Part shown: one piece after another, positions 1 to 45,583 of the stretch
How positions within the stretch are numbered: position 1 is the stretch's first letter
Layout of the letters: every line of letters starts with the position of its first letter
Assembly (NCBI RefSeq): GCF_024298765.1
Contig: NZ_CP101210.1
Source of the DNA: Escherichia coli
Lineage (GTDB): Bacteria > Pseudomonadota > Gammaproteobacteria > Enterobacterales > Enterobacteriaceae
Direction: 5' to 3' (one strand)
DNA length: 64,000 bases
Program-made: the position numbers and the translations under genes
The notes under the pieces: generated by a model
Told to the model about the DNA's origin: nothing
The model's input: only the letters and a program-made list of their open reading frames with translations
Databases searched by the model: none

Positions 1-1
1 G

Positions 2-214
2 GTCAGCGACAGTGCCAATCCTGTTCATCATTATGGTCATGTGCAGGGAGGCTACAGTGTGCCACTGATTATTACCGCCAGTGACATAACGTCTCATCAG
101 CCCGTCAGTAGAAAAATCAGTGCCCGTCATTTCGCAGGTATTTTTCAGTGGATGAACGGTATTTGTACTGAAAATATACCGCCATTCAATCCGCTGACAG
201 ACGAAGATAATTAA
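2..214 (+). CDS. hypothetical protein, 3' fragment; frame open from window start, stop TAA at 212-214 directly abutting IS5
   Basis: Hand translation of frame 2 gives 70 sense codons then TAA; no family recognised; could be chance. Confidence 0.25.
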   Translation, partial: VSDSANPVHHYGHVQGGYSVPLIITASDITSHQPVSRKISARHFAGIFQWMNGICTENIPPFNPLTDEDN

Positions 215-1409
<1,195 letters not shown>

Positions 1410-2823
1410 CTAGTGGTTAAAGTGGCAGCACTGATGACTTAAGCGATATTGTCTTTGTATACCAGATGAATATCTGCTCCTCGCTCATAGCAGACTTTTG
1501 CATAGGTTCTTTTCCTAAAATAGCATGACATTTGTTTCAAAATTAGCCTGTAAGTCAAGAAAATACTTGGAGAATAATAATCTAGGCATTGGTAGCAACG
1601 ATAAATATCTACATAACCGATATTATCGAGTTACTAAATTGATGTGTTCCGGTAGATGAACAAAATGGTAGATCCTTCTAGAAACAAATAGAGTGTGGAT
1701 GAGGTAACCTGACTCAGCCAATTTATTGAGTCCGTTGAGCATCTGATCGGTTAATCTCTGAGAAAGAGTTTTCAGACAGATTCATTTTCTAGAATTATTT
1801 TTACTCATCAAACAAGGATGATTTTAATTTAGGTTTATTACTATAATTATATTTATTCTTTATATATTCTTTATTCACTCCCTTTTTCATACAATCTCTA
1901 TTGTTATTTACTTCCTGTCTTCACTCACTCTCAATCTTTACACATTCCATTAGTATTACTCTTGTTATCGTATTCACTCCATCCCTCAATCATAACTACT
2001 GTAACTCATATGATGTTCAGGTAAGTTATTCTCTACTACGCTATTGTTGATATTCATCTATTCTCATCTTCAGTAAAACAGTAATTGATTCTAATTTATC
2101 CATTATGAACCGTATTTGCTTAACAATGATTGTTTATCTGAAGTGTTTTAACTATTCTGGTGAACATCAATTTCTCTGTCATTACTGATTAACTGAATGC
2201 TTACTCTTTAATAAGGTATCCATTATTCTGTAACGATTAGCCGAGCAGGGTAAATAACAGAATTAATAGAGTGAATTTCTGATTGTGTTTGTTCGTTCCT
2301 GATTATCTTGTATTTTAAACAAAATGAAAATTATCCATCCATGGTATGTTTCATTCTGGTACCGTGTACCCGTTAACGTTCATATCTTGAACATGAGTTG
2401 TTTTTAACAGATAAAATGAGTGCGTGTAAGTTTATTGGGTTACAGGTATCGTGTTGGCCTTGTACACGGTTTTTTAGAACCATTGAGAGCAAGTTTGTAA
2501 TTTATGATGGTGATTAGTCGTAATATGTTTCTTGAACTTCTGATCGTGGGTTTTTATCGCATATTTTGCAGTATTTCGTGATGTTTATTGATTCTGTATT
2601 TTATTCACTCCTCGTTTATCTCATCTCTTTAGCTAATACCATCAGATAATCCATTTATTTCTGCACAACGCTACGTGTCGTTAATAACCGACGTATCCAT
2701 TCTGTTACAGCATGCCTGATAAATACCGTCTGTAAGTTATTACCGTTTTAGATCTGATTATGAGCGAAAGCATTAATTCGTTTACAGCACTTAAAACGTC
2801 ATTAACTTTCAGGAGTCATCAGC

Positions 2824-3390
2824 ATGCCTAAATCTTACACACCAAACTGGTTTTTTACCGCTTTACTTGACAATCACATCAATCAGTTGGTCGCACGCTA
2901 TTCCCGCCTGCGGGCCTTACGCATGGATTTCTTCTACAGGAAAGATACGCCTGATTTCTTACAACCTGATCATCGCTGGCTTGAATTGCAGTTGCGTATG
3001 CTGCTGGAGCAGGTGGAACAATTTGAAAATATCGTTGGTTTCTTCTGGGTGATTGAATGGACGGCTGATCATGGTTTTCATGCGCATGCGGTTTTCTGGC
3101 TCGATCGTCAGAGGGTTAAAAAAATATATCCCTTTGCGGAGCGGATTACGGAATGCTGGCAGTCTATTACGCATAACAGCGGTTCGGCACACCGCTGTAC
3201 ATATCAGCCGCATTATACATACAACATCAACATTCCCGTGCGTCATAACGATCCCGGGAGCATCGATAATATTCGCGGTGTCCTGCATTATCTGGCGAAA
3301 GAAGAGCAAAAAGACGGACTGTGCGCATACGGTTGCAGTGAAGTTCCTGAACGACCTGCTGCAGGGCGTCCTCGTAAGCCTCACTTCTGA
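2824..3390 (+). CDS. island/prophage-associated hypothetical protein, possibly inovirus Gp2-like (YfjJ/YagK-type) family
   Basis: 188-aa ORF after a long AT-rich leader; family guess from gene context next to alpA and motif GFHAHAVFWLD; not verified. Confidence 0.4.
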   Translation: MPKSYTPNWFFTALLDNHINQLVARYSRLRALRMDFFYRKDTPDFLQPDHRWLELQLRMLLEQVEQFENIVGFFWVIEWTADHGFHAHAVFWLDRQRVKKIYPFAERITECWQSITHNSGSAHRCTYQPHYTYNINIPVRHNDPGSIDNIRGVLHYLAKEEQKDGLCAYGCSEVPERPAAGRPRKPHF

Positions 3391-3617
3391 AGCTTAAATC
3401 CTGAGCTTCCTGTCCTGGAAACATTCCGTCGGTAAAACCTTACCGCCTTGCTTAATGATGTGAACTGAAGTCAACGGAGATCATTCACTCTGAACCACAT
3501 CCGGTGTTCTGTCCCTTGTCGGTGACCTGATCTTCCCGTTCTGCCCCGGTTCTTCACTTATTCCATCAACCCCATCCGCAAACCATAACACGTCAGCTTA
3601 TTCACGGGCAGGACGCA

Positions 3618-4208
3618 TTGTGGGCTGCGCATAACGGAGCATATCTTATGAATGCTATCCCTTATTTCGACTATAGCCTGGCCCCCTTCTGGCCATCTTA
3701 TCAGAACAAAGTCATCGGCGTCCTTGAGCGTGCGCTGCGTGAGCAGTCCGGCTCACGGATACGGCGGATCCTGCTTCGTCTGCCGTGTGAATATGACAAT
3801 ACCTTCAACAGCAGAACGACCTGGTTTGGTATGGATTTTATCGAAACCGTCAGTGCGCTGATGAATGCAACACCCGGACGTGACCTTTGCTGGCTCCTGA
3901 CCCGTCATCCTGAAAAACCGGAATACCATGTGGTGCTGTGCGTCAGACAGGAGTATTTCGACGGCCCCGAACTGGATCGGTTGATTCTGGATGCCTGGAG
4001 TAACGTGCTGGGTTTCGCGTCACCAGGTGAAGCAAAGCCGTACCAGAAGCAGATCACCCGGGATGTGGTACTGGATCGCCGGTCACCGGACTGCGAAGCC
4101 CTGTTTAAGGACCTTATCTGGGCGTTCAGTGATTTCGCCCGCGATCGCCGTGGAGTGCGCGATCCGGAAGCCCGTTGCCTCGCCGGTAATCCCGGTTGGC
4201 AGTGCTGA
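3618..4208 (+). CDS. hypothetical protein (island-associated)
   Basis: 196-aa ORF in same orientation as neighbours; no family recognised. Confidence 0.35.
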   Translation: MWAAHNGAYLMNAIPYFDYSLAPFWPSYQNKVIGVLERALREQSGSRIRRILLRLPCEYDNTFNSRTTWFGMDFIETVSALMNATPGRDLCWLLTRHPEKPEYHVVLCVRQEYFDGPELDRLILDAWSNVLGFASPGEAKPYQKQITRDVVLDRRSPDCEALFKDLIWAFSDFARDRRGVRDPEARCLAGNPGWQC

Positions 4209-4276
4209 AAGCAGCATTCCATCCCATACCTCGTATTACCCCATTCTTCATCAATCTCACAGAGGATATTCTGACC

Positions 4277-4507
4277 ATGTTGACCACAATAAGCCACGAC
4301 AGCGTGTTGCTGCGTGCCGACGATCCCCTGATCGACATGAACTACATCACCAGTTTCACCGGCATGACCGATAAATGGTTTTACAGGCTGATCAGTGAAG
4401 GTCATTTCCCTAAACCCATCAAACTGGGGCGCAGCAGCCGCTGGTACAAAAGTGAAGTAGAGCAGTGGATGCAGCAGCGAATTGAGGAATCACGAGGAGC
4501 AGCATGA
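4277..4507 (+). CDS. alpA: AlpA-family phage transcriptional regulator (MerR-like HTH)
   Basis: Internal Met of ORF 4196-4507 gives ~76 aa MLTTISHDSVLL...FTGMTDKWFYRLISEGHFPKPIKLGRSSRWYKSEVEQWMQQR, typical AlpA pattern. Confidence 0.65.
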   Translation: MLTTISHDSVLLRADDPLIDMNYITSFTGMTDKWFYRLISEGHFPKPIKLGRSSRWYKSEVEQWMQQRIEESRGAA

Positions 4508-4617
4508 AACGAGTTGTGATGCCGGTACGCTGGCAATGTGCAAAATGCCGGCGCTGGTATTGCGGAAATCAGCTCTGTCCCTGGTGCTGGCGACATTACC
4601 GTTCATTTTCCTGCTGA
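4504..4617 (+). CDS. small Cys-rich (zinc-ribbon-like) protein, 37 aa, ATGA-coupled to alpA stop
   Basis: Hand translation MKRVVMPVRWQCAKCRRWYCGNQLCPWCWRHYRSFSC; CxxC and CxxC-like pairs; below ORF-track size cutoff. Confidence 0.3.
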   Translation: MKRVVMPVRWQCAKCRRWYCGNQLCPWCWRHYRSFSC

Positions 4618-4732
4618 CCCTCTCCGGTCAGCCAGCAGGTTGTAGCTCTTTCCTGACTGATTCGTTATTCCTTTCGTCCCGTCAGTCACTGGTGTTTGTA
4701 TCGTACTGTGCTGGTGTTGATGTGCGTTTTCC

Positions 4733-5275
4733 GTGTGTCTGCACCGGCTTAACAAAATTCACAGGGGTAAAATAGTGCAAATAACCGAAGCCTTACTTTC
4801 AGCGCCGGGGGAAATCCGGCGTTTTGTTCAGCAGGGGGTGGACCACTGGCCGCGTCTGCTGGCATTTCACTTCACGCTCCATTCGGCAGAAGGAAACATC
4901 AACGGGCAACAGATTCATGCATTCTGTACTTCCTTTTATGAACGTATTACTGAGCGTAATCACACGACCAGTCCATCATCGCCGGTGGTATTACGCTGGT
5001 TGCGGGAACAACATGGAGGAGCAACAATGCGATGCCTGTTGCTGCTCAGCCAGACGAGTATTTGTCACCCGCGAGCCAGTGTCACAGTTGATGAACAATG
5101 TTCGCAAGTGGTGGATTTACTGCAGCAGACCTGGCGGGGGATGGATACGGGCGGACAATGTCGGGTGGAAAGGTGTTTTCGGGTTACCCGGCCTGATACA
5201 TCAGAGCAATACGTTGCGTTAAAAACGGCTGTTCAGTCTCTGATGCCACTGGTTATTGCAACAATCATCCGGTGA
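4733..5275 (+). CDS. hypothetical protein
   Basis: 180-aa ORF; no family recognised; start uncertain. Confidence 0.3.
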   Translation: MCLHRLNKIHRGKIVQITEALLSAPGEIRRFVQQGVDHWPRLLAFHFTLHSAEGNINGQQIHAFCTSFYERITERNHTTSPSSPVVLRWLREQHGGATMRCLLLLSQTSICHPRASVTVDEQCSQVVDLLQQTWRGMDTGGQCRVERCFRVTRPDTSEQYVALKTAVQSLMPLVIATIIR

Positions 5276-5514
5276 TGACCGGGAGAAATATCGACTCTTC
5301 CGTTAATTTTTACAGACTGATAAAGTTTTGTCTGCTGAATCTTTATACGGAATTCTTTTCAGTATGCGTACACGAATTGATTATCTGGCGGATAAATACT
5401 GTTTTACAGAACTGAATGAATCGCCCCGTCTTCGCCGGCAATGGCAGGATGTCCTGGATGAGTGCCGGCAGACAGAGGCAGGGCCGGAAGAACGGTTGCG
5501 TATTGCACTGTTGA

Positions 5515-7206
5515 ATGTGGATTACGTCAGCAATGCTGAATCTGGATAAGCCTGGTGCCTGCGATCCCAGTGTGGAACGTCTGTTTGAAGGCTTTGCCTT
5601 CCTGATGGGACGTTTGCGTGAAAAGCTGGATGATGACCTGCCGGAGCTCACCGAAGGTCTGGTGAGTCTGCTGTGGCCGCACTATATGCGGACTATCCCG
5701 TCGCTGGCCATCGTTGAGTTCTCGCCTGACTGGCGTAGTCTGCGTCAGGCCGAAATACTGGCTGAAGGCTTTTCCGTTCTGTCCCGTCCTGTCGGGCCGC
5801 ATAAAACCGCCTGCCAGTACCGGGCGACCCGCGATGTGTTGCTACAACCGCTGCACCTTGCAGATGCCCGTCTCCATACTGAATCCGATGGCCGCTCTGC
5901 TATCCGTCTGCGCTTCGAATGCCCTGAAAAAGTGGACTGGAGTAAAGCCGGGATCGACAAAGTCGCCATTTTTCTTAACGCAGAGGCGCCGGTAAGTGCT
6001 GCGCTACATCTGGCAATGACCCGGCGTGTACATGCCATGTATGCGCGTCATGCCGGGACATATACCGGACGTCGTCAGTTTGACGGCTGGTGCAGACCCA
6101 TGGGCTTTGACGACAATGACTGCCTGTGGAAGAAAGCTGATACAGCCTTCAGTGGTTACCAGTTGCTGCTGGAGTATTTCAGCTTCCGTCCGAAGTTTAT
6201 GTTTGTTGAACTGCGCGGCCTCGACACCATTGGGCTCACTGCGGCCAGTACCTGGTTTGAAATCGACATTGTGCTCAGTGAAGCCTGGTCATCCGGTTTG
6301 CCTTTTGAGACAGAAAACTTCCGCCTGCACTGTGCGCCGGTTATCAATCTCTTTACCCTGGAAGCCGACCCGCTGATCCTTAACCCGCTGGATAACGAGT
6401 ACCTGCTCAGGCCGCTGCGTCTTCAGGATGGTCACACCGAAATTTACAGCGTCGATAACATTCACGGCTCGGTGAAGAACGGCAGACACCCTTATGTCCC
6501 GTTCACCAGCTTCCGGCACCGGGGCGGTATGATGCGCCACGATGCTCCTGAACGTTATTACCACACCCGTGTGAAACGGGGACCCTCCGGCCTGTATGAC
6601 ACATGGTTAGTTCTCGGGGGGCGTTCGTTCGAGCTGGAGCAGTTGTCCGATAAACCGGAGTCCCTCTCGATGCGAATCACCGCGACCAACGGGCAGCTTC
6701 CGCGCAGGGCGCTGGAAAGTACGCTCCTGGACAGGGTGGTCAAAACCGGCAAAGTCCCCGTCAGAGTCCTGAACCTGACCGCACCGACGATGCCACTGTA
6801 TCCCCCGGCAAATGACCGGTTTCACTGGCGGGTGATGAGTCACCTCGGATCAAACTTTCTCAGCATGATGGACAATCCGGAGGTGCTGCGGGGGACGCTG
6901 GCGCTCTATGACTGGACCGACGATGAAATGAACCGCCGCCGGCTTGAAGCCATCGTTGCTGTGAAGCACACCCTGATCCGCCGTTTTGAAAAGGGCTTTA
7001 TGCTCCGTGGCGTGGACATTGAGGTCACGCTGAATATGGATAATTTTGCCGGCGAGGGCGATGTGAATCTCTTCGGGGAGATGCTGCACCGTTTCTTTGC
7101 GCTCTATGCTGATGTTCACCTTTTCAACCAGCTCACACTGGTACTGCAACCCACAGGGAAACGACTGAGATGGAAAGAGAATCACAGCCAGCACGTACCG
7201 GGCTGA
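5515..7206 (+). CDS. tssF: type VI secretion baseplate subunit TssF (ImpG/VasA family), apparently lacking ~25-30 N-terminal residues
   Basis: Motif ERLFEGFAFLMGRLREKLDDDLPELTEGLVSLLWPHYMRTIPSLAIVEF is the conserved TssF N-proximal signature but sits at residue ~17; in-frame stop just upstream of 5515. Confidence 0.75.
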   Translation: MWITSAMLNLDKPGACDPSVERLFEGFAFLMGRLREKLDDDLPELTEGLVSLLWPHYMRTIPSLAIVEFSPDWRSLRQAEILAEGFSVLSRPVGPHKTACQYRATRDVLLQPLHLADARLHTESDGRSAIRLRFECPEKVDWSKAGIDKVAIFLNAEAPVSAALHLAMTRRVHAMYARHAGTYTGRRQFDGWCRPMGFDDNDCLWKKADTAFSGYQLLLEYFSFRPKFMFVELRGLDTIGLTAASTWFEIDIVLSEAWSSGLPFETENFRLHCAPVINLFTLEADPLILNPLDNEYLLRPLRLQDGHTEIYSVDNIHGSVKNGRHPYVPFTSFRHRGGMMRHDAPERYYHTRVKRGPSGLYDTWLVLGGRSFELEQLSDKPESLSMRITATNGQLPRRALESTLLDRVVKTGKVPVRVLNLTAPTMPLYPPANDRFHWRVMSHLGSNFLSMMDNPEVLRGTLALYDWTDDEMNRRRLEAIVAVKHTLIRRFEKGFMLRGVDIEVTLNMDNFAGEGDVNLFGEMLHRFFALYADVHLFNQLTLVLQPTGKRLRWKENHSQHVPG

Positions 7207-8015
7207 CGCAGGCCCTGGCCCTTAACAACGATATCTGGCGGGCCAGTTTTTATCGTTTCTGCCAGCTGCTGGAGCTGGAAAATCCGGACGGGCCAAAACT
7301 GGGCACGACCAGCCATCCGGGCGATGACCCGGTGCGATTCAGGCCCTGGCCCGGGATGGGATTCCCGGTCAGCACCCTGAAAGCGGTGGAGATCGACGAA
7401 GACCGTCCGACATTACCCCCAACGATCCGCACGACATTTCTCGGAATGTATGGGGTGGACTCACCTCTGCCGACGTCCTGGCTGGATGATATTGCGCAGC
7501 GCCGTGAAGGACATGAGGCGCTCACCTCATTTCTGGATATTTTCAGCCACCGCATCACCACCCAGTACTACCGGATCTGGCGAAAATATGCGTATCCGGC
7601 CACTTTCGAGGAGGGGGGGCGCGATGCCACATCGCAGTGTCTGCTGGGACTGGTCGGACTCGGTATACCCGGCACCGCTGAACAGGTGGCAACGCCGGTT
7701 TCCCGTTTCCTGGCCTTACTGGGTGCCATGCGATTACCCACCCGCAATGCTGAAGGCATCCGGGCTCTGGTGAGTCTGCTGGCACCGGATACCCGCGCAC
7801 TTATCACCGAACCCGATCCGGTTAAGGTCCATATCGATAACCGCAGTGGGCTGGGTGCCGGAAACCGCATCCGTCTTTCGCAGCGGGCCACGCTGGGTAA
7901 AACGGCAGGGGAAGCATGCAGCCGGCTCCTGATGACACTGGAAACAGCGGATCCGGACGAGGCGGAAGGCTGGTTGCCCACAGATAACCGGAGCAGGATT
8001 TACCGCCTTTCTTAG
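7170..8015 (+). pseudogene. tssG: type VI secretion baseplate subunit TssG (ImpH family), 3'-truncated at IS66 junction near 7970
   Basis: Overlaps tssF stop as in T6SS clusters; 281 codons versus ~330-350 expected; last ~15 codons are IS66-derived sequence read out of frame. Confidence 0.65.
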
Positions 8016-8066
8016 TGTTCAGGATCTTCAGGGTAGTCTCATCTGCATGCACCACCGGACGGTTTA

Positions 8067-8849
8067 TCAACTCGCGATGGAGTAACGCCGCCAGGGGAGA
8101 TAATGCGGCACCCGCCGCGCCAACCATGTCAGCCATCGAACTGACGGGCAGCCCGACACTGAACGGGCAAAGACCTGTTGCTGGCGATACAGAGGCAGGT
8201 GGTCACCGTATTTATTGATGATCACCTGTGTGATGACTGATGGCTCAACGGCACTTTTCGGGAGGATATGTGCCGGCATTTCACCGCTGAACACCTTCTG
8301 GCAACAGGAACAACTGTATTGCGGACGGACATAACGGTTCACCACGAAGTGAACGGGAATATACTCCAGCTTTTCACTCACCGCATCACGGATATAGTGC
8401 AGCGGCTCGTCACATTCAGGGCAATGGTCAGTGTCCGGCTGGATAATTTTTTCCACCCGTGGAAGATGAGCCGGTAAGGGTTTGCGTATCGGGCGTGAAC
8501 GGGACGCTTTTTCGTCTTCTTCAGGGGATTGCGGGAGCAGTTTATCCAGATGTGCGGTAAGCGCGGCGATATCGACATCAACATCCTCTTCGAACAGGGA
8601 GCGTTGCATACCAGCCAGCGTTTCACATTTTTTACCGAAGCGCTGTTGACGAACCAGTTTCAGCATTTCTTCCAGAAGCTGGATGCGCCGGCTTTTCTCC
8701 AGTAATTCCCGCTCTTTTTCGGCATTCTCCGACATGACTTTTTGTACCATGGTAAGTGCCATAGCACGCAGTTTTTCGATGTCATTCGTGGTGTTGAGAG
8801 CGGAGATATCCATACAGGGGAGTATACCACTCCAGATACGGATATTCAT
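8067..8849 (-). pseudogene. tnpC: IS66-family transposase TnpC, N-terminal portion (frameshift near 8140)
   Basis: 260-aa ORF with coiled-coil N-terminus, CPECDEPLHYI zinc motif and HLPLYRQQQVFAR, as in IS66 TnpC. Confidence 0.7.
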
Positions 8850-8855
8850 TATTTT

Positions 8856-9248
8856 TCACTGAGTTAGCAGTGTATTTTGCGTGTTTTCAGGGCGCAGTTC
8901 AGGTTCATTCTGCCAGCCCCATTTCGTCAGGTCATGTCCCTTAACCTGCTGCCAGTCAACACCGGCAATCAGCCAGTTAAACTCGTCGGGAGTTAGGTGC
9001 CAGGCAGCATCATTTGCACGTGGCCAGCGGAAGCTGCCTTTGTGCAGACGGCGGGTACACAACCACACCCCGTGTTTATCCCACCGGAGAACTTTGATAC
9101 GCGAACGGACTTTGTTAACAAAGACGAAGGCGGCTCCCTCATGCCATGTCGACCGGAGTTCATCCTGTATATACTGCGTCAGTGTGTCGATGCCCCGGCG
9201 CATGTCAACAGGTTTAATCGCGATGAAGACATTATCAGGACTGAGCAT
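8856..9248 (-). CDS. tnpB: IS66-family TnpB
   Basis: Internal start MLSPDNVFIAIKPVDMRRGIDTL... of ORF 8856-9542 matches IS66 orf2 pattern. Confidence 0.7.
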   Translation of the reverse strand: MLSPDNVFIAIKPVDMRRGIDTLTQYIQDELRSTWHEGAAFVFVNKVRSRIKVLRWDKHGVWLCTRRLHKGSFRWPRANDAAWHLTPDEFNWLIAGVDWQQVKGHDLTKWGWQNEPELRPENTQNTLLTQ

Positions 9249-9564
9249 ATTTGAGCGCCCTGAAGACATCGGTAAGTTGTGACGGCTGACAGCACATCCG
9301 TACTCCGCCGGGAAGGAAGAGCGTGACTGGCTCATTCGTGACGGGCTGTGGTACATCAGCATGCAGTGGTGGCGCAATATGAACGGGAAGAACGGTCGGT
9401 TCATTTGCCCGGCGTTCAGCTTTTGCGACATCCTGCGGCCATTCGCGAAGTGATGTGAAGGGAATATCGTTGAGTTCACAGTATTGCTGACGTGTAAGAC
9501 CACTGGCGCGCCAGGCAGCAACGTGCTGCCTTTTCTGTTCAATGGTCCATCGGGGTTTTGACAT
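9235..9564 (-). CDS. tnpA: IS66-family accessory protein TnpA
   Basis: 109-aa ORF immediately upstream of and overlapping tnpB in IS66 order. Confidence 0.55.
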   Translation of the reverse strand: MSKPRWTIEQKRQHVAAWRASGLTRQQYCELNDIPFTSLREWPQDVAKAERRANEPTVLPVHIAPPLHADVPQPVTNEPVTLFLPGGVRMCCQPSQLTDVFRALKYAQS

Positions 9565-9649
9565 TGATTATCTCCGGTAAGTTGGTGAATGAATGTCGGT
9601 AATGCTAACTGACTGAAAATCTCTGTGAAGATGACTTCCCCGTAACGAC

Positions 9650-10404
9650 ACCTTCTTTATCGCCTGCCGAATGACGCTGTTCAGCGATTCGATGGCTATC
9701 GTCGTGTCCGGGCTATTCTCAGACGGCAGTCTTAACGAAGGACTGCAGTTCGTGAATGCAAATCGCGTTTATCGAATAATGAGCGAGAATAACCTGTTGT
9801 TATTACATGACAAACCTTCACGACCGCAGAGGGAACATAAAGGCCCGAATATCGGTGAAGGAAAGCGACCCGCGCTGGTGTGCCGATGGCTTTGAGTTCG
9901 GTTGTGATGATGACGAAAAACTGCGTGTCACGTTCGCACTGGACTGTTGCGATCTTGAATCCATAGACTGGGCCGCAAGCACGGGAGGTTATGGCAAAGC
10001 AACGGTGCAGGATGTCATGTCAGGAGCGATAGAAAAACGCTTTGGCGATAGACCGGGATGGCCCATCCAGTGGCTGACCGATAACGGTTCGGCTTATACA
10101 ACTCATGAAACACGGCAGTTCGCCAGAGAGTTGAATCTGGAGCTCTGCACGACGGCAGTCAGTAGCCCTCAGAGTAATGGAATGAGAGAACGGTTCGTGA
10201 AAACGATGAAGAGCGATTACATCAGTATCATACCTAAACCGGACGGGTTAATGGCAGCAAAGAACCTTGCAGAGGCGTTCGAGCATTATAACGAATGGCA
10301 TCCGCATAGTGCACTGGGTTATCGCTCGCCACGGGAATATCTACGGCAGCGGGCCAGTAATGGGTTAAGTGATAACAGGTGTCTGGAAATATAGGGGCAA
10401 ATCC
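9650..10404 (+). mobile_element. IS2-like (IS3 family) element, 3' portion only; ends at IS2 right terminus GGGGCAAATCCA
   Basis: Encodes InsD-like C-terminal region; last ~150 bp identical to the IS2 fragment at 38287-38436. Confidence 0.7.
9671..10394 (+). pseudogene. insD: IS2-like transposase InsD (OrfB), 5'-truncated and frameshifted
   Basis: Frames 9671-9895 and 9807-10394 together give NANRVYRIM...WCADGFEF...WLTDNGSAY...[29 protein letters not shown]. Confidence 0.7.
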
Positions 10405-10650
10405 ATTTCGCAAGCAAAGACTCTGGTAAATACTCGTCATATTTATCCAGATCCTTATCAGGAACAACTGTAGCAGGCTCAAATTCTGAAGGTGCAAAAT
10501 GGCATCTGAATCGATCACGACTTGGCATGCTTCCGATCATTGATTGGCATCCTGCCAGTCGTATCGTAAGCGTAAACCGACCGCCGTATGTAGCCATTAG
10601 ACAAGAATTGGTAACTTAGACGCCCATCTGACACAGACGGACATCTAAGT

Positions 10651-11070
10651 ATGGAATTGCAGGACTGGCGAAAAGAACCTCGTAAAAAGTATTCGAATGA
10701 ATTCAAACTTCGTATGGTTGAACTGGCATCACAACCCGGTGCTTGTGTGGTCCAGATTGCACGAGAAAATGGCGTCAATGATAATGTTATATTCAAATGG
10801 CTCAGACTCTGGCAAAACGAAGGGTGTATATCGCAGCGTCTTCCGGTGACAACCACTTCTGACGCAGGCGTTGAATTATTACCTGTAGAGATAACGCCTG
10901 ATGAGCCGAAAGAACCGGTGGCTGCTCTTACTCCGTCTTTATCCACCCAGACTACTGTCAGTGCCAGCTCCTGCAAGGTGGAGTTCCGTCACGGTAACAT
11001 GACGCTGGAAAATCCTTCACCAGAGCTGCTCACTGTGTTGATCCGTGAACTGACCGGGAGGGGACGATGA
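10651..11070 (+). CDS. tnpA: IS66-family TnpA
   Basis: 139-aa ORF MELQDWRKEPRKKYSNEFKLRMVELAS...; overlaps tnpB start (ATGA). Confidence 0.7.
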   Translation: MELQDWRKEPRKKYSNEFKLRMVELASQPGACVVQIARENGVNDNVIFKWLRLWQNEGCISQRLPVTTTSDAGVELLPVEITPDEPKEPVAALTPSLSTQTTVSASSCKVEFRHGNMTLENPSPELLTVLIRELTGRGR

Positions 11071-11417
11071 TCTCACTCCCGTCAGGCACCCGCATCTGGC
11101 TCGTTGCCGGCGTTACCGATATGCGTAAATCCTTCAACGGACTGGGAGAACAGGTACAGCATGTGCTGAATGATAATCCCTTCTCCGGTCACCTGTTCAT
11201 CTTCCGTGGCCGACGGGGTGACACGATTAAAATCCTGTGGGCTGATGCTGATGGTCTGTGCCTGTTCACCAAACGCCTGGAGGAAGGCCAGTTTATCTGG
11301 CCTGCGGTGCGTGACGGCAAGATATCCATTACCCGCTCGCAACTGGCAATGCTCCTCGATAAGCTGGACTGGCGTCAGCCAAAAACATCCCGTCTTAACG
11401 CACTGACAATGTTGTAA
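11067..11417 (+). CDS. tnpB: IS66-family TnpB
   Basis: 116-aa ORF MISLPSGTRIWLVAGVTDMRKSFNGL..., canonical IS66 orf2. Confidence 0.75.
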   Translation: MISLPSGTRIWLVAGVTDMRKSFNGLGEQVQHVLNDNPFSGHLFIFRGRRGDTIKILWADADGLCLFTKRLEEGQFIWPAVRDGKISITRSQLAMLLDKLDWRQPKTSRLNALTML

Positions 11418-11447
11418 AAATGTCATGGCCGGATTATAAAAACGGTC

Positions 11448-12212
11448 ATGAGTCAGAAATACCTCATTCGGATCACTGAGCTGGAAAGGTTGCTCTCTGA
11501 GCAGGCTGAAGCCCTCCGTCAGAAAGACCAACAACTGAGTCTGGTTGAAGAGACGGAGGCCTTCCTGCGTTCTGCGCTGGCACGTGCCGAAGAAAAGATC
11601 GAAGAAGATGAGCGGGAAATAGAGCATCTGCGGGCCCAGGTGGAAAAACTGCGCCGGATGCTGTTCGGTACCCGTTCTGAAAAACTGCGTCGTGAAGTTG
11701 AACAGGCTGAAGCCCTGCTGAAACGACGCGAACAGAACAGCGATCGTTACAGCGGGCGTGAGGATGACCCGCAGGTTCCCCGCCAGTTGCGACAGTCGCG
11801 TCATCGTCGCCCGTTACCGGCGCATCTGCCCCGCGAAATAAACCGCCTGGAGCCAGAAGAAAGCTGTTGCCCGGAGTGTGGTGGTGAGCTGGATTATCTG
11901 GGGGAAGTCAGCGCAGAACAACTGGAACTGGTGAGCAGCGCCCTGAAAGTGATCCGCACAGAACGGGTAAAAAAAGCCTGTACAAAATGTGACTGCATCG
12001 TTGAAGCACCGGCACCGTCCCGTCCGATAGCGCGTGGTGTCGCGGGCCCGGGGTTACTTGCCCGCGTGTTAACGGGAAAATACTGCGAACACCTGCCACT
12101 GTATCGTCAGAGTGAAATCTTTGCCCGTCAGGGTGTCGAACTGAGCCGTGCGTTACTCTCCAACTGGGTTGACGAGCTCCTGCCATGGAACGTAGCACTC
12201 ACCAATAAATAA
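11448..12212 (+). pseudogene. tnpC: IS66-family transposase TnpC, N-terminal fragment (254 aa of ~520)
   Basis: Coiled-coil N-terminus, CPECGGELDYL zinc motif, HLPLYRQSEIFARQGVELSRALLSNWVDELLPW, then premature stop. Confidence 0.7.
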
Positions 12213-12437: not shown

Positions 12438-13685
12438 TTACTCATTTCTCATCTTCATCCTTCGGGTAAGCAGAGTCGCACAAATGAATCCCAGCAGACT
12501 AAATGCCACCATTACAGAAAAAACATAGTTATAGCCCTGTATGCCAGAAAAATTATCTAACAGCGAACCATAAAGCGTGTAAGCAAACATGGAAGGCATG
12601 TAACCAATAATGCACCCAAACGCCATTGCTGAACCAGCAAATTCTCTGGGGGTACCGATTTCATCCATTGGCGCAAAAAAAATTGCCCGTTGTGAAAAAA
12701 TGATTGCACCAAATCCAAGAGTTGCAGTCATTCCAAGATAAACATTCATTGAGTCGTGTGGTAGTTGAATAAAAAGTAGCATAGCGACTGCTGAAATAAG
12801 GAAAGTCCATTTCAGATAGATGACCGGAGAATGAGAAATTTTATCTGCGAGATAACCGCCAACTGGCCCGCCCACCATTTTTAGTCCGTACTGGTTAATA
12901 ATCCCGTAAGCACCCACGAGTGCAACGGGAAGGGCATAGATATCTTTCAGGAATGGTATGAAATATGTTAGCCCACAATATGCGGAGTACACAAAGAATA
13001 TACAAAATGAGGCCAGCCACAGATTTGGTGATTTAACGACATTCTTTATCCCCTTGAATATCTGTTTATTAACATCTTCGTCATTCTGTGGAATGGTCCT
13101 GTCGTCTGCATCCACAATAAAGTAGGTGATAATTCCAACAATAATGGTGATTAATGTGTAATAAACAAGACCAGCCTGCATGCCAGCTTTTCCTTCGCCA
13201 AACTGCACAAAGACGAATAAAGCGCCGGACGCAATTAATACATCCACGACTCCTCGTCCAGCTTCCAGAAAGCCGAACATACGTCCCTGTTCATCCCTGT
13301 TCCCCAACAGACGAACAGCTTTAAGTAGCACGGGCCAGTAGACCACTTCGCCAAAGAAAGCCATAGCACCAAAAGCTATAAGGTAACCAGAGAAGGGGGG
13401 TAATGTTGTGAGGTAAGCGCCGCACAGACCCACACCGATTAAACCTGCAGGAAGAAGTATTTTTTTGGAAAAGCGATCTGCTATATATAATGAACTAAAT
13501 AGTCCGATAGTCTGAACAGCAGCATATATTGTAAATCCAAAGCCAATCTGTGTATTAGTCAATCCCCAGTCAGCCTGCATAGGAACATAAAATACGTCCT
13601 TCATACTGGACAATTTGAAAATTGTCCCACCGCCAAGAATAAGGAAGCATAGCTTCATCCATTTATTCATCTGGTTATCCCCCAT
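12438..13685 (-). CDS. MFS transporter
   Basis: 415-aa polytopic hydrophobic ORF; start overlaps RidA stop (TAATG). Confidence 0.7.
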   Translation of the reverse strand: MGDNQMNKWMKLCFLILGGGTIFKLSSMKDVFYVPMQADWGLTNTQIGFGFTIYAAVQTIGLFSSLYIADRFSKKILLPAGLIGVGLCGAYLTTLPPFSGYLIAFGAMAFFGEVVYWPVLLKAVRLLGNRDEQGRMFGFLEAGRGVVDVLIASGALFVFVQFGEGKAGMQAGLVYYTLITIIVGIITYFIVDADDRTIPQNDEDVNKQIFKGIKNVVKSPNLWLASFCIFFVYSAYCGLTYFIPFLKDIYALPVALVGAYGIINQYGLKMVGGPVGGYLADKISHSPVIYLKWTFLISAVAMLLFIQLPHDSMNVYLGMTATLGFGAIIFSQRAIFFAPMDEIGTPREFAGSAMAFGCIIGYMPSMFAYTLYGSLLDNFSGIQGYNYVFSVMVAFSLLGFICATLLTRRMKMRNE

Positions 13686-14062
13686 TATTTGATAACCGCA
13701 ATGGCTTCAATTTCTATCAGCACGTCTTTCGGTAATCTGGCGACTTCAACACAGGACCTGGCCGGGTATTTGTCTGATGAGAAATATTCACTGTACAGAA
13801 GGTTAAATTGAGAAAAATTATCCATGTTACTGATAAAACAGGTTGTTTTTACGATGTTATCCATTCCGATTCCTGCAGATTCAATAATTGCCTTCAGATT
13901 ATCCATCGCTTGCCTGGTTTGCCTTTCTATAGTCTCGCCATTTACGGTTCCGTCTTCTGGTTTGAAAGGACAACATCCGGAAATGAACAATAAATTACCA
14001 GTTGATACTGCCTGTACATAGGGACCGATAGCTTTGGGGGCATGTTTAGTATCAATGATCAT
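13685..14062 (-). CDS. RidA/YjgF family reactive-intermediate deaminase
   Basis: 125-aa ORF MIIDTKHAPKAIGPYVQAV...SCVEVARLPKDVLIEIEAIA, typical RidA. Confidence 0.8.
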   Translation of the reverse strand: MIIDTKHAPKAIGPYVQAVSTGNLLFISGCCPFKPEDGTVNGETIERQTRQAMDNLKAIIESAGIGMDNIVKTTCFISNMDNFSQFNLLYSEYFSSDKYPARSCVEVARLPKDVLIEIEAIAVIK

Positions 14063-14083
14063 AAAAGTATCCTTTTAAATTTA

Positions 14084-15043
14084 TTAACAATATTTTTTTC
14101 TTAAATTCTTCAGAGTCTGAACAGAAACCTCAACACAACGATTTTGGGCTGCCATTAGTTCCTGTAATACAGAGTCAGATATTTTGGCAGGGTAGTAATA
14201 ATCAAGTGGCTTTATTTTCAGGTGTTCAAATGGTGCCTCTTTTACGGAGAATGCCCCTTCCAGAGAATATACGCCGCCAGTACCCTTTGGACGGGCAAAA
14301 GGTGAGGCATATGGGAAACATGTTTCGATGTTTATTCTGGTTAAAGAGGACTCTTTAACCAGAGTTTTAAAGCAGGTATCAATATCAATGCTTCCTTCTC
14401 CGACAGGAACACCACAGACAACCAGGTCTTCGCCGTTGCGTGTGACAATATGATCCTTGAAATGCGTGCTGTAAGCATAAGGAGCCAGTTTACGAACTGT
14501 TTCTACTGGTTCTTCCCATGCCATCATTCCATTACCTATATCACAGTGTGCTCCCACCCACTCAGAATTAACAGATTTGATAACTTCGATTATCTCGTCG
14601 GCAGTTTCATCTTCATGGTTTTCTATTGCCAGTTTAATTTTCTTTCTACTGAGTAAGGATGTCAGTGATTTTAACTGTTCTACTATTTCCGGATATTTCA
14701 GAGGGTTATATTCTCCTCTCCTGAACATATAAGTTCGGATAACTTCTGCTCCAAGTGCAGATGCAATTTCCACTGCTCTGGTGATAGCTTCACAGGAAGT
14801 GAATCGGGTATCTATCTCACAATAAAGACCATGAGAATCAATGGATTTTCTGACTTTTGACAGATATTCAGGAGATATACTGTTCAGGACACCAAATTCC
14901 GGATGCAGACCAACATCCGGAATGATATTAATTTCGACCCCATCCAGCCCCAGTTCACTGGTTTTATCAATGAAGTCGAAAATATCCATCATTCCCTGCT
15001 GAAAGAACAGATGATATGACTCAGTCTCAAGGCCTAGTTTCAT
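14084..15043 (-). CDS. sugar phosphate isomerase/epimerase (xylose isomerase-like TIM barrel)
   Basis: Start chosen at MKLGLETESYHL with GGAGG 7 nt upstream; family assigned from overall resemblance to sugar-phosphate isomerases, not verified. Confidence 0.6.
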   Translation of the reverse strand: MKLGLETESYHLFFQQGMMDIFDFIDKTSELGLDGVEINIIPDVGLHPEFGVLNSISPEYLSKVRKSIDSHGLYCEIDTRFTSCEAITRAVEIASALGAEVIRTYMFRRGEYNPLKYPEIVEQLKSLTSLLSRKKIKLAIENHEDETADEIIEVIKSVNSEWVGAHCDIGNGMMAWEEPVETVRKLAPYAYSTHFKDHIVTRNGEDLVVCGVPVGEGSIDIDTCFKTLVKESSLTRINIETCFPYASPFARPKGTGGVYSLEGAFSVKEAPFEHLKIKPLDYYYPAKISDSVLQELMAAQNRCVEVSVQTLKNLRKKYC

Positions 15044-15228
15044 GGCGAACCTCCATAGTATTTGAGACTGATTGTAGTTTTTTATACATTTGTAAAATGT
15101 GATCAAAGTAGAATAATTTCTCACTTAGTGAATAAATTTACTACCTGGTGTTATTTTGAGCCACTTTGGTGGACTCTGTTCTGCATCTGGTATAGCATTC
15201 AGATGTACTTTGTTCATGAGGTTATTAT

Positions 15229-15891
15229 ATGAAATCTATTGTTAATCATGAGTTTACTGAGGATGACAGGCAGCTTTTGCTCTCATATATTCCATTCATC
15301 GACAGTCTTGGTCAGTTCTTGGGTGAGTATTGCGAGATCGTCCTGCATAGTTTTGAGGACTTGCATCATTCCGTTATTCATATCGTTAACGGGCATGTGA
15401 CGGGGAGAGAGAAGGGGGCACCTGTAACAAATATAGCACTGGAAAAACTGGCAGAATTTAACTCAACAAACGATATGTGGGATGTCTATTTCAACCATAA
15501 AGGCGTTCGCCCTTTTAAATCATCGTCATCACTTATTCTGAATAAAAATAAAGAACCAGTAGGTATGATATGTATGAACTTTGCTCTGGATATGCCTCTT
15601 AATGCATTTATTGAAAACTTTGCAAAATCGTCAAACTGTAAAAACGAAAATTTCACTCAGGATATCAATAATCTTGTGCTTAGTCACCTTGAACCTGTTA
15701 AAAATATGGTTTACTCCAATAAGAATATACCAAGTAAAAACAAGAACTTTGAAATAGTAAAAGAACTTAATTCTATTGGGTTGTTTAAGTTCCCGGTTAC
15801 AACAAAAATTGTTTCATCGGTTCTTGGTATCAGTGCTAACACTATTTATAAACATCTCAGGGTATTAAATAATAAGGGGAAGGAGAATTAA
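15229..15891 (+). CDS. YheO-like transcriptional regulator (PAS-like N-domain plus C-terminal HTH)
   Basis: Motif CEIVLHSFEDLHHSVIHIVNGHVTGREKGAPVTNIALEKL matches YheO family; divergent from the isomerase operon. Confidence 0.7.
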   Translation: MKSIVNHEFTEDDRQLLLSYIPFIDSLGQFLGEYCEIVLHSFEDLHHSVIHIVNGHVTGREKGAPVTNIALEKLAEFNSTNDMWDVYFNHKGVRPFKSSSSLILNKNKEPVGMICMNFALDMPLNAFIENFAKSSNCKNENFTQDINNLVLSHLEPVKNMVYSNKNIPSKNKNFEIVKELNSIGLFKFPVTTKIVSSVLGISANTIYKHLRVLNNKGKEN

Positions 15892-16009
15892 GGTGTCTGT
15901 ATTCTGAACTTATAAGTAAGTTGTTTGTCTGAAGCGTATTGATATTTATTTTTCGGTTAGAGCAACTTTCTAGGGAAACAGATCGCGTATCCAGTTTGCC
16001 TGTCATTCC

Positions 16010-16290
16010 TAGATATGTTCAATGACGTAACGCAGCCATTTTTCTGGAGCCATATTGTTCAGACGGCATGTACCAATCCGCAGGTACAGCATCGCCGCAT
16101 CCTCAAGTAATGCCGGTAATTTGGGGCGTAATTCTGTTGCGCTTTTACTGAACACAATGCCGTATTCAGTAAGAAGTCCAAGAACATGATCTATCAGTTG
16201 TGTCCTTCCATCGAGATCAACCGATGCATTTTCAAAAAAGCCTGGACGTTCTGTAGGTCCAGACTTTTTATTGGTACCAGTCGTATAGTT
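16010..16290 (-). pseudogene. IS66-family transposase C-terminal remnant (no start codon)
   Basis: Hand translation ...AMLYLRIGTCRLNNMAPEKWLRYVIEHI* fits IS66 TnpC C-terminal pattern (A.L..LI.TC.LN...P..WL..V). Confidence 0.35.
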
Positions 16291-16823
16291 CTATATTGAT
16301 AGGTTTCAGCTATTGCTGTGCGTTGTTATAATCATTTTTCTGACGCCATTGATAAGATTTAACATGTTGTGCTGGATGCAATATTACATCATAGTTGAGT
16401 TCCCTTATTTCCTGTGGGCAGTGATGGGATGTCCCGCAAGCCTTCATCGCAACGGTCATTTTGGCTGTTATACCAGCCAGTTAAGCAGTTGGTTGTGAGA
16501 AAGTTTGATCTTTCCCGCGTGATTGCCACGAGCATTGATACTGAAAAGATAAAAGTTCGTTTTAGCCTGAGCGATGTCGGTAATTTTCTGTTCAATCATG
16601 GCCTTTCTCTTACTTTTGTGGTTAAAATTTATTCGCTATGGCGCAATTGAAAGCGGTCGTGAAGGTGGGGGAAGACTATCTCATCACTTACCATATTTCC
16701 GACATATTCTCACAACAAAATACCACGTAACTATTGATGAATATTGTTCTCTCCTGAGCAGCGTTTATGCTTTAATTGCTAAATCGATTTAATTAGTTTA
16801 GCAATTAGTATATTGGAGCCTTT

Positions 16824-17744
16824 ATGAGCACAAGAGTATGGGTACTTGGTGATGCGGTTGTTGATTTATTACCCGAAAGCCAGGGGAGACTACTACAGTG
16901 TCCTGGCGGGGCGCCTGCTAATGTTGCAGTCGGTATCGCAAGGCTGGGGGGGAAAAGTGCCTTTATTGGCAAAGTTGGCGATGATCCTTTCGGTCGCTTT
17001 ATGTATCAGACACTGAGTACAGAAAATGTTGATACACGTTATATGTCTCTTGATCCTCAACATCGCACCTCAATTGTGGCTGTAGGACTTGATGAGCAAG
17101 GAGAAAGAAACTTTACCTTTATGGTACGCCCAAGTGCCGATCTTTTTTTACAACCTGATGGCCTTCCTGCATTTGGGCCGGGTGAATGGCTCCATCTTTG
17201 TTCCATTGCGCTCAGTGCAGAACCTTCCCGAAGTACCGCATTTCTGGCTATGGAGAAAATACGTCAGGCTGGCGGAAACATCAGTTTTGATCCCAATATC
17301 CGCAGCGATCTCTGGCAGAGTGAAGCGCTATTAAGGAAATACCTTGATCGCGCACTTTCGCTGGCGAATATCGCTAAATTGTCCGAAGAAGAGTTGCTAT
17401 TCATCAGTGGCGAAAGCCAGGTTCAGCAAGGCGCATATTCATTAGTACAACGTTATTCGTTGACTTTATTGCTTATCACACAAGGAAAAAATGGCGTACT
17501 TGTGTATTTTCAGGGGCAGTTTATCCACTATCCCGCCAAACCTGTTTCTGTCGTCGATACGACCGGGGCAGGAGATGCTTTTGTCGCTGGATTACTTGCC
17601 GGTCTGGCTGATTCTGGAATACCAACAAATACCAGACAGCTTGAACGAATCATTGTACAAGCTCAGATTTGTGGTGCTCTGGCGACCACGGCTAAAGGCG
17701 CGATGACCGCCTTACCCCGACAACACGATCTCCCTTCACAATAG
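16824..17744 (+). CDS. scrK: fructokinase
   Basis: 306-aa PfkB-family ORF with GAGDAF motif; first gene of scr regulon. Confidence 0.85.
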   Translation: MSTRVWVLGDAVVDLLPESQGRLLQCPGGAPANVAVGIARLGGKSAFIGKVGDDPFGRFMYQTLSTENVDTRYMSLDPQHRTSIVAVGLDEQGERNFTFMVRPSADLFLQPDGLPAFGPGEWLHLCSIALSAEPSRSTAFLAMEKIRQAGGNISFDPNIRSDLWQSEALLRKYLDRALSLANIAKLSEEELLFISGESQVQQGAYSLVQRYSLTLLLITQGKNGVLVYFQGQFIHYPAKPVSVVDTTGAGDAFVAGLLAGLADSGIPTNTRQLERIIVQAQICGALATTAKGAMTALPRQHDLPSQ

Positions 17745-17887
17745 TGATCCTGCTGTTGTATCTGTAACCCGATTTGTCGTGCCTGTCACATTTACTAAAT
17801 CGGTTTAGCGAAAATAATTGCTTTGGCTAAAAAGTCAGCTTTATTATCAACACCTAAACCGGTTTAGCATTTTAGCAATTTTTATAA

Positions 17888-19429
<1,542 letters not shown>

Positions 19430-19489
19430 TACCAGACAACCTCACAGATGTGAAGTTTTTACTGAAATAACAATGAATTAGAGGGTTAT

Positions 19490-45561: not shown

Positions 45562-45583
45562 ATATGTGAGCTGGATAAAAAAA

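What the first reader, a model, noticed from the sequence alone, without database searches (positions are those of the whole stretch)
5515..8015. Orphan type VI secretion remnant: tssF lacking its N-terminus and tssG cut by IS66
Only two baseplate genes are present, with no tssE upstream and no further T6SS genes downstream. The TssF signature ERLFEGFAFL...PHY sits at residue ~17 instead of ~45, and tssG ends inside IS66-derived sequence near 7970. This marks a decayed T6SS locus in the island.
Basis: partly seen in the sequence, partly recalled or inferred. Interest (0 to 1): 0.5.

Follow-up and report, generated by a model that had tools for sequence, protein, structure and literature searches.

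The report
Decayed type VI secretion gene remnant
Two truncated genes (tssF and tssG) are all that two large deletions left of a complete bacterial "type VI secretion" weapon in an E. coli genomic island; this is ordinary gene decay that reference annotation already marks as pseudogenes.

Summary
ORF 5515-7206 is TssF (TIGR03359 E=4e-154) and ORF 7170-8015 is TssG (TIGR03347 E=2e-60). Both are truncated.

Against intact alleles (97.9-98.2% nt; TssF 589 aa, TssG 362 aa), the remnant keeps TssF residues 31-589 and TssG residues 1-270. No other T6SS gene from that cluster is found in the 64 kb window.

The left joint (5528/5529, 2-nt overlap) fuses a 5' fragment of an ECs1377-family island gene to tssF codon 31. 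The right joint (7975-7979, 5-nt overlap) fuses tssG codon 270 to an internal point of the tnpC gene of an IS66-family element (ISEc49). The IS is therefore truncated too. This is a deletion joint, not an IS-end insertion.

The intact Sci-1/T6SS-1-type island of strain STEC316 is collinear on both sides. Deletions of about 26.3 kb and 19.6 kb explain the structure.

Each joint, and the remnant at ≥99% identity, is found in 58 of 5,426 complete E. coli genomes. PGAP already annotates the pair as pseudogenes.

Verdict: a real but ordinary remnant in a pheV island, of low interest. The "cut by IS66" mechanism and the expectation of tssE upstream need correcting.

The parts
5364..5529 (+). 5' fragment (about 55 of about 207 codons) of an ECs1377-family island-backbone gene; left partner of the left deletion joint
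   Evidence: NF052300 profile positions 1-44 of 190, E=2e-16, below cutoff because truncated. 96% nt identity to the intact gene region in strain TL20, ending at 5529. PGAP annotates it as a pseudogene missing its C-terminus.
5528..5529 (.). Left deletion joint; the 2-nt overlap (CA) is shared by both parental sequences
   Evidence: Base-by-base comparison with L003 and L001. A 200-nt probe across the joint matches end to end in 58 of 5,426 genomes.
5515..7206 (+). tssF pseudogene: a chimeric ORF. ATG plus 4 codons come from ECs1377-derived DNA read out of frame; from 5527/5528 onward it is native tssF codons 31-589
   Evidence: TIGR03359 and PF05947. tblastn against intact 589-aa TssF covers residues 31-589 at 98.6% identity. 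PDB 6GIY TssF aligns from residue 31 to 587.
7170..7979 (+). tssG pseudogene: native codons 1-270 of 362, overlapping the tssF 3' end by 37 nt as in intact clusters
   Evidence: TIGR03347 and PF06996. tblastn covers residues 1-270 at 97.8% identity. PDB 6GIY TssG aligns residues 7-271 of 366.
7975..7979 (.). Right deletion joint; the 5-nt overlap (TGCCC) is shared by tssG and the interior of ISEc49 tnpC
   Evidence: A 200-nt probe across the joint matches end to end in 58 of 5,426 genomes.
7980..8015 (+). Foreign tail of 11 codons plus stop on the tssG ORF (the 12th non-native residue, T271, is encoded by the codon spanning the joint at 7979/7980), read from the antisense strand of IS66 tnpC
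   Evidence: ORF list and joint alignment.
7975..9651 (-). Truncated IS66-family element (ISEc49-like). tnpC fragment runs to 8813, is frameshifted, and keeps about 280 of 521 codons; tnpB is 8856-9248; tnpA is 9235-9564. The tnpC-side IS end is missing
   Evidence: 98.3% nt identity to ISEc49 of CFT073, starting at an internal tnpC position. NCBIfam IS66 tnpC profile positions 3-115 of 387 only; TnpB and TnpA are complete. PGAP annotation.
9652..10405 (+). 3' fragment of IS2 (IS3 family) ending at its right terminus; its 5' part is replaced by the ISEc49 left end
   Evidence: PGAP 'integrase core domain' pseudogene. IS2 homology in thousands of records ends at window ~10405.
10406..10562 (.). 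Unique island DNA collinear with the region about 19.6 kb downstream of tssG in the intact STEC316 island; marks the far side of the right-hand deletion
   Evidence: 99% identity to NZ_CP041431.1 4645903-4645483, running on into the same IS66-like insertion.
10563..12173 (+). Second IS66-like element (tnpA 10651-11070, tnpB 11067-11417, tnpC truncated at 12173), at the same site as an IS66 fragment in STEC316

Best explanation
The segment 5528-7979 is the non-functional residue of a complete Sci-1/T6SS-1-type type VI secretion cluster. That cluster once sat in this family of Phe-tRNA (pheV/pheU) integrative islands.

The inferred ancestor resembled the STEC316 or SC407 islands. Its order was: backbone genes (YagK/YfjJ, hypothetical, AlpA-like HTH, hypothetical, ECs1377-family gene), then tssB-C-K-L-tagL-hcp-tssH-vgrG-effector-PAAR-tssM-tssA-tssF-tssG-tssJ-vgrG-effector/immunity-tssE, then defence genes and PerC, then IS66-like.

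Two illegitimate (microhomology) deletions removed everything else. One, of about 26.3 kb, ran from inside the ECs1377-family gene to tssF codon 31. The other, of about 19.6 kb of island DNA, ran from tssG codon 270 into an IS nest (ISEc49 inserted in IS2) that had formed downstream, and ended inside ISEc49 tnpC.

The surviving tssF' and tssG' are pseudogenes. They have lost their promoter and operon context and the 11 other core genes. TssF has lost its native start and first 30 residues. TssG has lost residues 271-362, which hold half of its C-terminal triangle-core domain and TssK-binding loop 2. No baseplate can be built from them.

Shown here: gene identity, truncation points, joint sequences, collinearity and population frequency. 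Inferred: the order and mechanism of the deletions, and the lack of function.
For: Identity and truncation.

Joints at base resolution, with 2-nt and 5-nt overlaps and no IS terminus at either.

The IS66 partner is joined at an internal tnpC position.

Collinearity with islands that carry the whole cluster:
- SC407 pheU island: window 1473-4674, 5528-7979, 24149-25841 and 30626-36594 match in the same order and orientation (annotation).
- STEC316 pheU island: window 3405-5532 (94%) ends in the ECs1377-like gene about 1.1 kb upstream of tssB, and window 5528-7979 resumes 26.3 kb further on.
- Window 10403-10823 matches STEC316 DNA 19.6 kb beyond the tssG breakpoint, with the same IS66-like insertion.

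The window lies in a pheV island: tRNA-Phe at 48105-48180, with yqgA and speC beyond.

Each joint probe matches end to end in 58 of 5,426 complete genomes. The same number carry the remnant at ≥99% identity, and the same number cover ≥80% of a probe spanning both joints. This suggests a single origin, although I did not cross-check that the four sets of 58 are the same genomes. PGAP independently annotates both genes as incomplete pseudogenes.

Structure-function: in EAEC TssG the C-terminal domain is residues 179-365, and loop 2 contacts TssK through L308, L319 and M325. Mutating loop 2 abolishes TssK binding (PMC6300606). The remnant stops at the equivalent of residue 271.

No above-background promoter-like site lies directly upstream of tssF'.
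Against: Both reading frames are intact over 1.68 kb and 0.81 kb, with no internal stops or frameshifts. Remnant-specific substitutions are 12 synonymous to 6 non-synonymous, similar to differences among intact alleles. So there is no positive sign of relaxed selection. This fits a recent deletion but does not prove loss of function.

Read-through transcription from the co-oriented island genes upstream is possible and was not tested.

The exact ancestor is not in the collection. Deletion sizes are measured on STEC316 as a proxy, and the SC407 island has different DNA between the backbone and tssB. No genome with only one of the two joints was seen, so the order of events is unknown.
Confidence: 0.93

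Rival explanations
1. The fragment was not left by decay in place. It was imported already truncated, for example mobilised next to the IS66-family element or patched in by recombination, into an island that never held a T6SS.
For: The DNA directly abutting the fragment (4675-5527 and 7980-10402) is not homologous to the SC407 T6SS island. IS66-family and IS2 debris adjoin the right side. Islands of this family are mosaic and are exchanged between pheV and pheU.
Against: In STEC316 the ECs1377-family gene lies directly upstream of tssB in the same orientation, and the DNA at window 10406-10562 lies downstream of the same cluster. One simple deletion per side therefore reproduces the window. 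The IS66 element is joined at an internal point and lacks the end it would need to mobilise adjacent DNA. The left joint has no IS at all.
Confidence: 0.04
2. The two ORFs are expressed and retained for a function, for example truncated TssF/TssG acting with, or interfering with, another T6SS baseplate in the same cell.
For: The reading frames are intact, an ATG was created at 5515, and the native tssG start is kept. There are no disabling mutations in 58 genomes from varied hosts. The N-terminal 46 residues of EAEC TssF are not part of the modelled fold (PMC6300606), so TssF' might still fold.
Against: Copies are 99-100% identical, so the absence of further decay carries no weight. TssG' lacks loop 2 and half of its core domain. 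No Shine-Dalgarno-like sequence is visible before the 5515 ATG (sequence), and there is no nearby promoter-like site. The listed carriers show no second tssF/tssG locus at megablast sensitivity (one place per record). The nearest common E. coli T6SS-1 alleles are only about 71% identical.
Confidence: 0.02
3. The truncations are assembly or sequencing artefacts (mis-join or frameshift), and the real genome has full-length genes.
For: None found.
Against: Both joints occur identically in 58 independently assembled complete genomes. The flanking DNA is bona fide homologous sequence from other genes right up to the joints.
Confidence: 0.01

Closest known systems
EAEC Sci-1 (E. coli T6SS-1 organisation) cluster of the pheU island; TssK-TssF-TssG wedge structures PDB 6GIY, 6GJ1, 6N38
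   Same: The best and only PDB relatives are TssF (E=4e-240, aligned 31-587) and TssG (E=1e-80, aligned 7-271). Close intact relatives have the same gene order: tssB-C-K-L, OmpA/TagL, hcp, tssH, vgrG ... tssM, tssA, tssF, tssG, tssJ ... tssE. They also sit in a Phe-tRNA island (PMC6730261).
   Different: Only 2 of the core genes survive, and both are truncated. The allele is a distinct lineage. The common E. coli tssF/tssG loci (presumably T6SS-1-type) found by megablast are only about 71% nt identical, whereas 24 genomes carry intact alleles at 95-99% identity.
Intact T6SS islands of E. coli STEC316 (NZ_CP041431.1, pheU) and SC407/SC422 (NZ_LR778141.1 and NZ_LR778143.1)
   Same: tssF-tssG are 97.9-98.2% nt identical. 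The island backbone is shared, as are the ECs1377-family gene upstream (STEC316), the downstream H-NS/tia/HTH/cobalamin adenosyltransferase/PEA-transferase module (SC407) and the IS66-like insertion site (STEC316).
   Different: They keep the whole cluster, with variable effector/immunity and anti-phage modules (Zorya II; Hachiman/Kiwa-like). The window has replaced these with IS debris and sugar-utilisation cargo, and it sits at pheV rather than pheU.
GI-pheV islands carrying a T6SS (e.g. the intP4.5 type, EAEC 55989) and module loss by deletion in GI-pheV (PMC11537424)
   Same: T6SS clusters are a known GI-pheV cargo. Whole-module loss and remnants (pap, flu, yee) are described as the usual mode of evolution of these islands.
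   Different: That paper does not describe this tssF'-tssG' remnant. It attributes module loss mainly to flanking IS elements, whereas here neither joint is at an IS end.
Other degraded E. coli secretion loci (ETT2 T3SS, Flag-2, IS-inactivated T6SS of E. coli W)
   Same: Mutational attrition leaves terminal or internal gene remnants of a large secretion apparatus (PMC3032704).
   Different: It is a different apparatus and locus. Here only an internal 2.45-kb piece survives, rather than terminal remnants.

Membership tests
TssF (TIGR03359 / PF05947) | Full-length match to the family profile above the curated cutoff | tested here: met
   514.7 bits against a cutoff of 260.3, but covering only profile positions 28-597 of 600. 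Pfam covers 32-606 of 608. It is a family member by sequence and N-terminally truncated by 30 residues relative to intact 589-aa alleles.
TssG (TIGR03347 / PF06996) | Full-length match including the C-terminal domain with both TssK-binding loops | tested here: not met
   The score of 204.4 bits exceeds the cutoff of 143.3, so it is a family member by sequence. The match stops at profile position 252 of 300 and at residue 271 of 366 of PDB 6GIY chain C. Loop 2 (L308, L319, M325; PMC6300606) is absent.
Functional T6SS locus | Presence of the 13 core genes (tssA-M, including hcp, vgrG and clpV/tssH) | tested here: not met
   tblastn of 23 proteins of the intact SC407 cluster against the whole window hits only tssF and tssG. 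PGAP annotation of the near-identical 8GC region lists no other T6SS gene. The rest of the source genome could not be examined.
Sci-1 / E. coli T6SS-1 organisation | Gene order tssA-tssF-tssG-tssJ with TagL-type OmpA protein, and closest similarity to EAEC Sci-1 proteins | tested here: met
   This was tested on the intact 98%-identical relatives, not on the remnant itself. The closest solved structures are EAEC TssF and TssG.
IS66-family insertion (as the cause of the tssG truncation) | Target gene abuts an intact IS terminus (inverted repeat) of a complete tnpA-tnpB-tnpC element | tested here: not met
   Homology to ISEc49 starts 840 nt into the 1,566-nt tnpC gene. The 3' 726 nt of tnpC and the IS end are missing. 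The tnpC fragment matches only profile positions 3-115 of 387.
Phe-tRNA (pheV) integrative genomic island | P4-type integrase next to tRNA-Phe, flanked by yqgA/speC, with CP4-like backbone genes | tested here: met
   tRNA-Phe is at 48105-48180 on the minus strand. The integrase, yqgA and speC are seen in the collinear 8GC record. gspM/yghD and the CP4-like yee module lie at the other end in SC516.

The most novel reading that the evidence does not exclude
The chimeric tssF' ORF (new ATG at 5515) and tssG' are transcribed by read-through from the island backbone genes. They would yield truncated baseplate proteins that are retained because they modulate, for example poison or prime, assembly of another T6SS, or serve a non-secretion role. 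This would explain why 58 genomes keep both frames open.
Probability: 0.02. Interest if true: 0.35.

Novelty: already known. Interest (0 to 1): 0.1.

Why it matters
It matters little on its own. It is a clean, base-resolved example of how cargo modules in Phe-tRNA islands are lost. A roughly 46-kb T6SS-plus-defence region is reduced to 2.45 kb by two microhomology deletions, one of which ends inside an IS nest.

The practical value is for annotation. These ORFs should not be counted as evidence of a T6SS in strains carrying this island. The two joint sequences are also a convenient lineage marker for this island variant, which is found in about 1% of complete E. coli genomes.

Tried and rejected
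- Hidden N-terminus or frameshift: rejected. The upstream DNA is an ECs1377-family gene read in another frame, and the joint is shared by 58 genomes.
- Simple IS66 insertion into tssG: rejected, because the IS is joined at an internal tnpC position.
- Search for intermediates with only one joint: none found. Each joint probe gave 58 end-to-end matches and all other hits were half-matches to the parental sequences.
- Test for relaxed selection: uninformative. Remnant-specific changes are 12 synonymous to 6 non-synonymous, comparable with differences among intact alleles.
- Promoter and terminator scan: nothing above shuffled background near the ORFs.
- SC407 as ancestor proxy for the left joint: inadequate, since it has different DNA between the backbone and tssB and no ECs1377 gene. 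STEC316 proved a better proxy.
- Literature search for a description of this specific remnant: none found. Only general reports of T6SS cargo and module remnants in GI-pheV turned up.
- Not attempted: scanning a carrier's whole genome for other T6SS loci, which the tools cannot do.
Full report
**1. Observation.**
The ORF list shows 5515-7206 (+, 563 aa) and 7170-8015 (+, 281 aa), overlapping by 37 nt.
- The first is TssF: NCBIfam TIGR03359, E=4.4e-154, 514.7 bits against a cutoff of 260.3, profile positions 28-597 of 600. Pfam PF05947 gives E=1e-150, model positions 32-606 of 608.
- The second is TssG: TIGR03347, E=2.1e-60, positions 2-252 of 300. PF06996 gives E=2.7e-56, positions 2-255 of 304.

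The segment is also richer in G+C (56-60%) than its flanks (about 50%).

**2. Truncation points.**
Megablast against 5,426 complete E. coli genomes found intact relatives at 97.4-98.2% nt identity. In SC407, STEC316 and E10, TssF is 589 aa and TssG is 362 aa.
- A tblastn of the 23 proteins of the SC407 cluster against the whole window hit only TssF (residues 31-589, 98.6% identity) and TssG (residues 1-270, 97.8%). No other gene of the cluster is present in the 64 kb.
- The lost TssF N-terminus is MDDLTLRYYEAEMRYLREAGKEFARAHPDR.
- The ERLFEGFAFL motif starts at residue 21 of the ORF and residue 47 of the intact protein.

**3. The joints.**
- *Left.* Homology to an ECs1377-family gene region (strain TL20, 96%) runs to 5529, and tssF homology starts at 5528, a 2-nt overlap (CA). 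The upstream ORF 5328-5549 matches NF052300 (ECs1377 family) positions 1-44 of 190. It is in a different frame from tssF'. The ATG at 5515 is therefore a fortuitous out-of-frame codon in ECs1377-derived DNA, and the 563-aa ORF is chimeric.
- *Right.* tssG homology ends at 7979, and homology to ISEc49 (IS66 family, CFT073, 98.3%) begins at 7975, a 5-nt overlap (TGCCC). The ISEc49 breakpoint lies 840 nt into its 1,566-nt tnpC gene. The element has lost the 3' 726 nt of tnpC and its terminus. NCBIfam sees only profile positions 3-115 of 387 of the transposase, while tnpB and tnpA are complete.
- *Conclusion.* tssG was not simply "cut by IS66". Both partners are truncated at a microhomology joint, which is the signature of an illegitimate deletion. 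The tssG ORF then reads 12 antisense-IS codons to a stop at 8013-8015.

**4. Context and reconstruction.**
The window lies in a pheV island. tRNA-Phe is at 48105-48180 on the minus strand. The collinear genome 8GC has a P4-type integrase, yqgA and speC beyond it, and the other island end abuts gspM/yghD in SC516.

The intact clusters sit in sister islands at pheU. They have the Sci-1/T6SS-1 gene order tssB-C-K-L, OmpA/TagL, hcp, tssH, vgrG ... PAAR ... tssM, tssA, tssF, tssG, tssJ, vgrG ... tssE. The native neighbours of the surviving pair are therefore tssA and tssJ, not tssE.

- *Against SC407.* Four window segments match in the same order and orientation: the backbone 1473-4674, tssFG 5528-7979, H-NS/tia 24149-25841, and the HTH-to-PEA-transferase module 30626-36594.
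- *STEC316, left side.* STEC316 is a better ancestor proxy. Window 3405-5532 aligns at 94% up to the ECs1377-like gene, which lies about 1.1 kb upstream of tssB in the same orientation. The window then resumes in tssF 26.3 kb further on.
- *STEC316, right side.* Window 10403-10823 matches STEC316 at 99%, 19.6 kb beyond the tssG breakpoint. This includes 157 nt of unique DNA (10406-10562) followed by an IS66-like element at the same site.
- *Between tssG' and that DNA.* This stretch holds the truncated ISEc49 (7975-9651, minus strand) and the 3' 754 bp of IS2 (9652-10405).
- *Simplest history (inferred).* IS2 inserted downstream of the T6SS/defence region, and ISEc49 inserted into IS2. A deletion then ran from inside ISEc49 tnpC to tssG codon 270. 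A separate deletion ran from the ECs1377 gene to tssF codon 31.

**5. Population.**
Each joint probe matches end to end in 58 of 5,426 genomes, and all other hits are half-matches to the parental sequences.
- The same number, 58, carry the fragment at ≥99% identity and cover ≥80% of a probe spanning both joints. I did not cross-check that these sets are the same genomes.
- 24 genomes carry intact alleles at 95-99% identity, and about 300 carry a T6SS locus about 71% identical.
- Carriers come from humans, poultry, dogs, mink and the environment.
- PGAP already annotates the pair as "incomplete; missing N-terminus" and "incomplete; missing C-terminus" pseudogenes next to a frameshifted, incomplete IS66 transposase.

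**6. Function.**
The closest solved structures are the EAEC Sci-1 TssF and TssG of the baseplate wedge, PDB 6GIY, 6GJ1 and 6N38.
- In that structure the TssG C-terminal domain (residues 179-365) forms the triangular core with two TssF copies, and its loops 1 and 2 each anchor a TssK trimer. Loop-2 residues L308, L319 and M325 are required for TssK binding (PMC6300606).
- The remnant stops at the equivalent of residue 271. It therefore lacks loop 2 and about half of the core domain.
- TssF' loses residues 1-30, which lie upstream of the modelled fold (residues 47-587). It also loses its native start and its operon context.
- With 11 of 13 core genes absent from the locus, no apparatus can be made from it.
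- No promoter-like site above background lies just upstream.
- The frames are otherwise intact. Remnant-specific changes are 12 synonymous to 6 non-synonymous, like the differences among intact alleles. This fits a recent deletion and gives no power to test selection.

**7. Comparison and novelty.**
T6SS clusters are known cargo of pheU and pheV islands (Sci-1 and Sci-2 in EAEC, PMC6730261; GI-pheV of EAEC 55989, PMC11537424). Loss of whole modules that leaves remnants is the described mode of evolution of GI-pheV. Attrition of secretion loci is common in E. coli (PMC3032704). I found no paper describing this particular remnant, but reference annotation already labels it correctly. It is an ordinary pseudogene remnant and I file it as already known.

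**8. Verdict.**
Interest is about 0.1.

Noticed in passing
window 25851-30625: A 4.8-kb insertion, absent from the closest genome (8GC), carries a chromosomal blaCTX-M gene (26715-27590, minus strand; NF033089, 620.7 bits against a cutoff of 570). It is flanked by a partial IS5-family (IS903-like) transposase (26042-26680), an IS4-family (IS10-like) transposase (27835-29043) and an IS1380-family (ISEcp1-like) transposase (29178-30440). An ESBL transposition unit has therefore landed inside the pheV island.
   Followed up: partly
window 1-1409 (IS5-family transposase at 361-1341, minus strand): The left edge of the window does not match 8GC, which has a TIR-domain protein gene there. The window has an IS5-family transposase instead (NF033581, E=7e-110).
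   Followed up: partly
window 7975-12173: This is a nest of IS debris. It holds truncated ISEc49 (minus strand), the 3' part of IS2, 157 nt of island DNA, and a second IS66-like element (plus strand) whose tnpC is also truncated at 12173. The two IS66-family elements face in opposite directions, and both lack the 3' part of tnpC.
   Followed up: partly
window 12438-23302, and ~39000-46600 by offset from 8GC: The island cargo is largely sugar utilisation. It includes an MFS/RidA/sugar-phosphate isomerase module, a sucrose PTS (scr-type) operon with porin, IIBC, sucrose-6-phosphate hydrolase and a LacI regulator, and a second porin/GH32/MFS/alpha-galactosidase cluster next to the integrase.
   Followed up: no
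L009 33522-36989 (STEC316); L001 31555-35653 (SC407): In the islands with the intact T6SS, anti-phage systems sit immediately downstream of tssE: type II Zorya in STEC316, and KwaB-like plus HamA/helicase (Hachiman-like) in SC407. This variable defence slot lies within the region deleted from the window.
   Followed up: no
L001 28953-30311; L009 31171-32535; L010 28072-29442: All three intact clusters carry, just after tssE, fragments annotated as an ImpA N-terminal domain, a POTRA/hypothetical fragment, and a VasL-domain fragment or short ORF. This looks like a conserved older decay scar within otherwise intact clusters.
   Followed up: no
L002 15644-17613 (strain WP4-S18-ESBL-08): In one carrier an IS21 element has inserted into the already truncated ISEc49 tnpC next to the remnant. 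This shows continuing IS accretion at the site.
   Followed up: no
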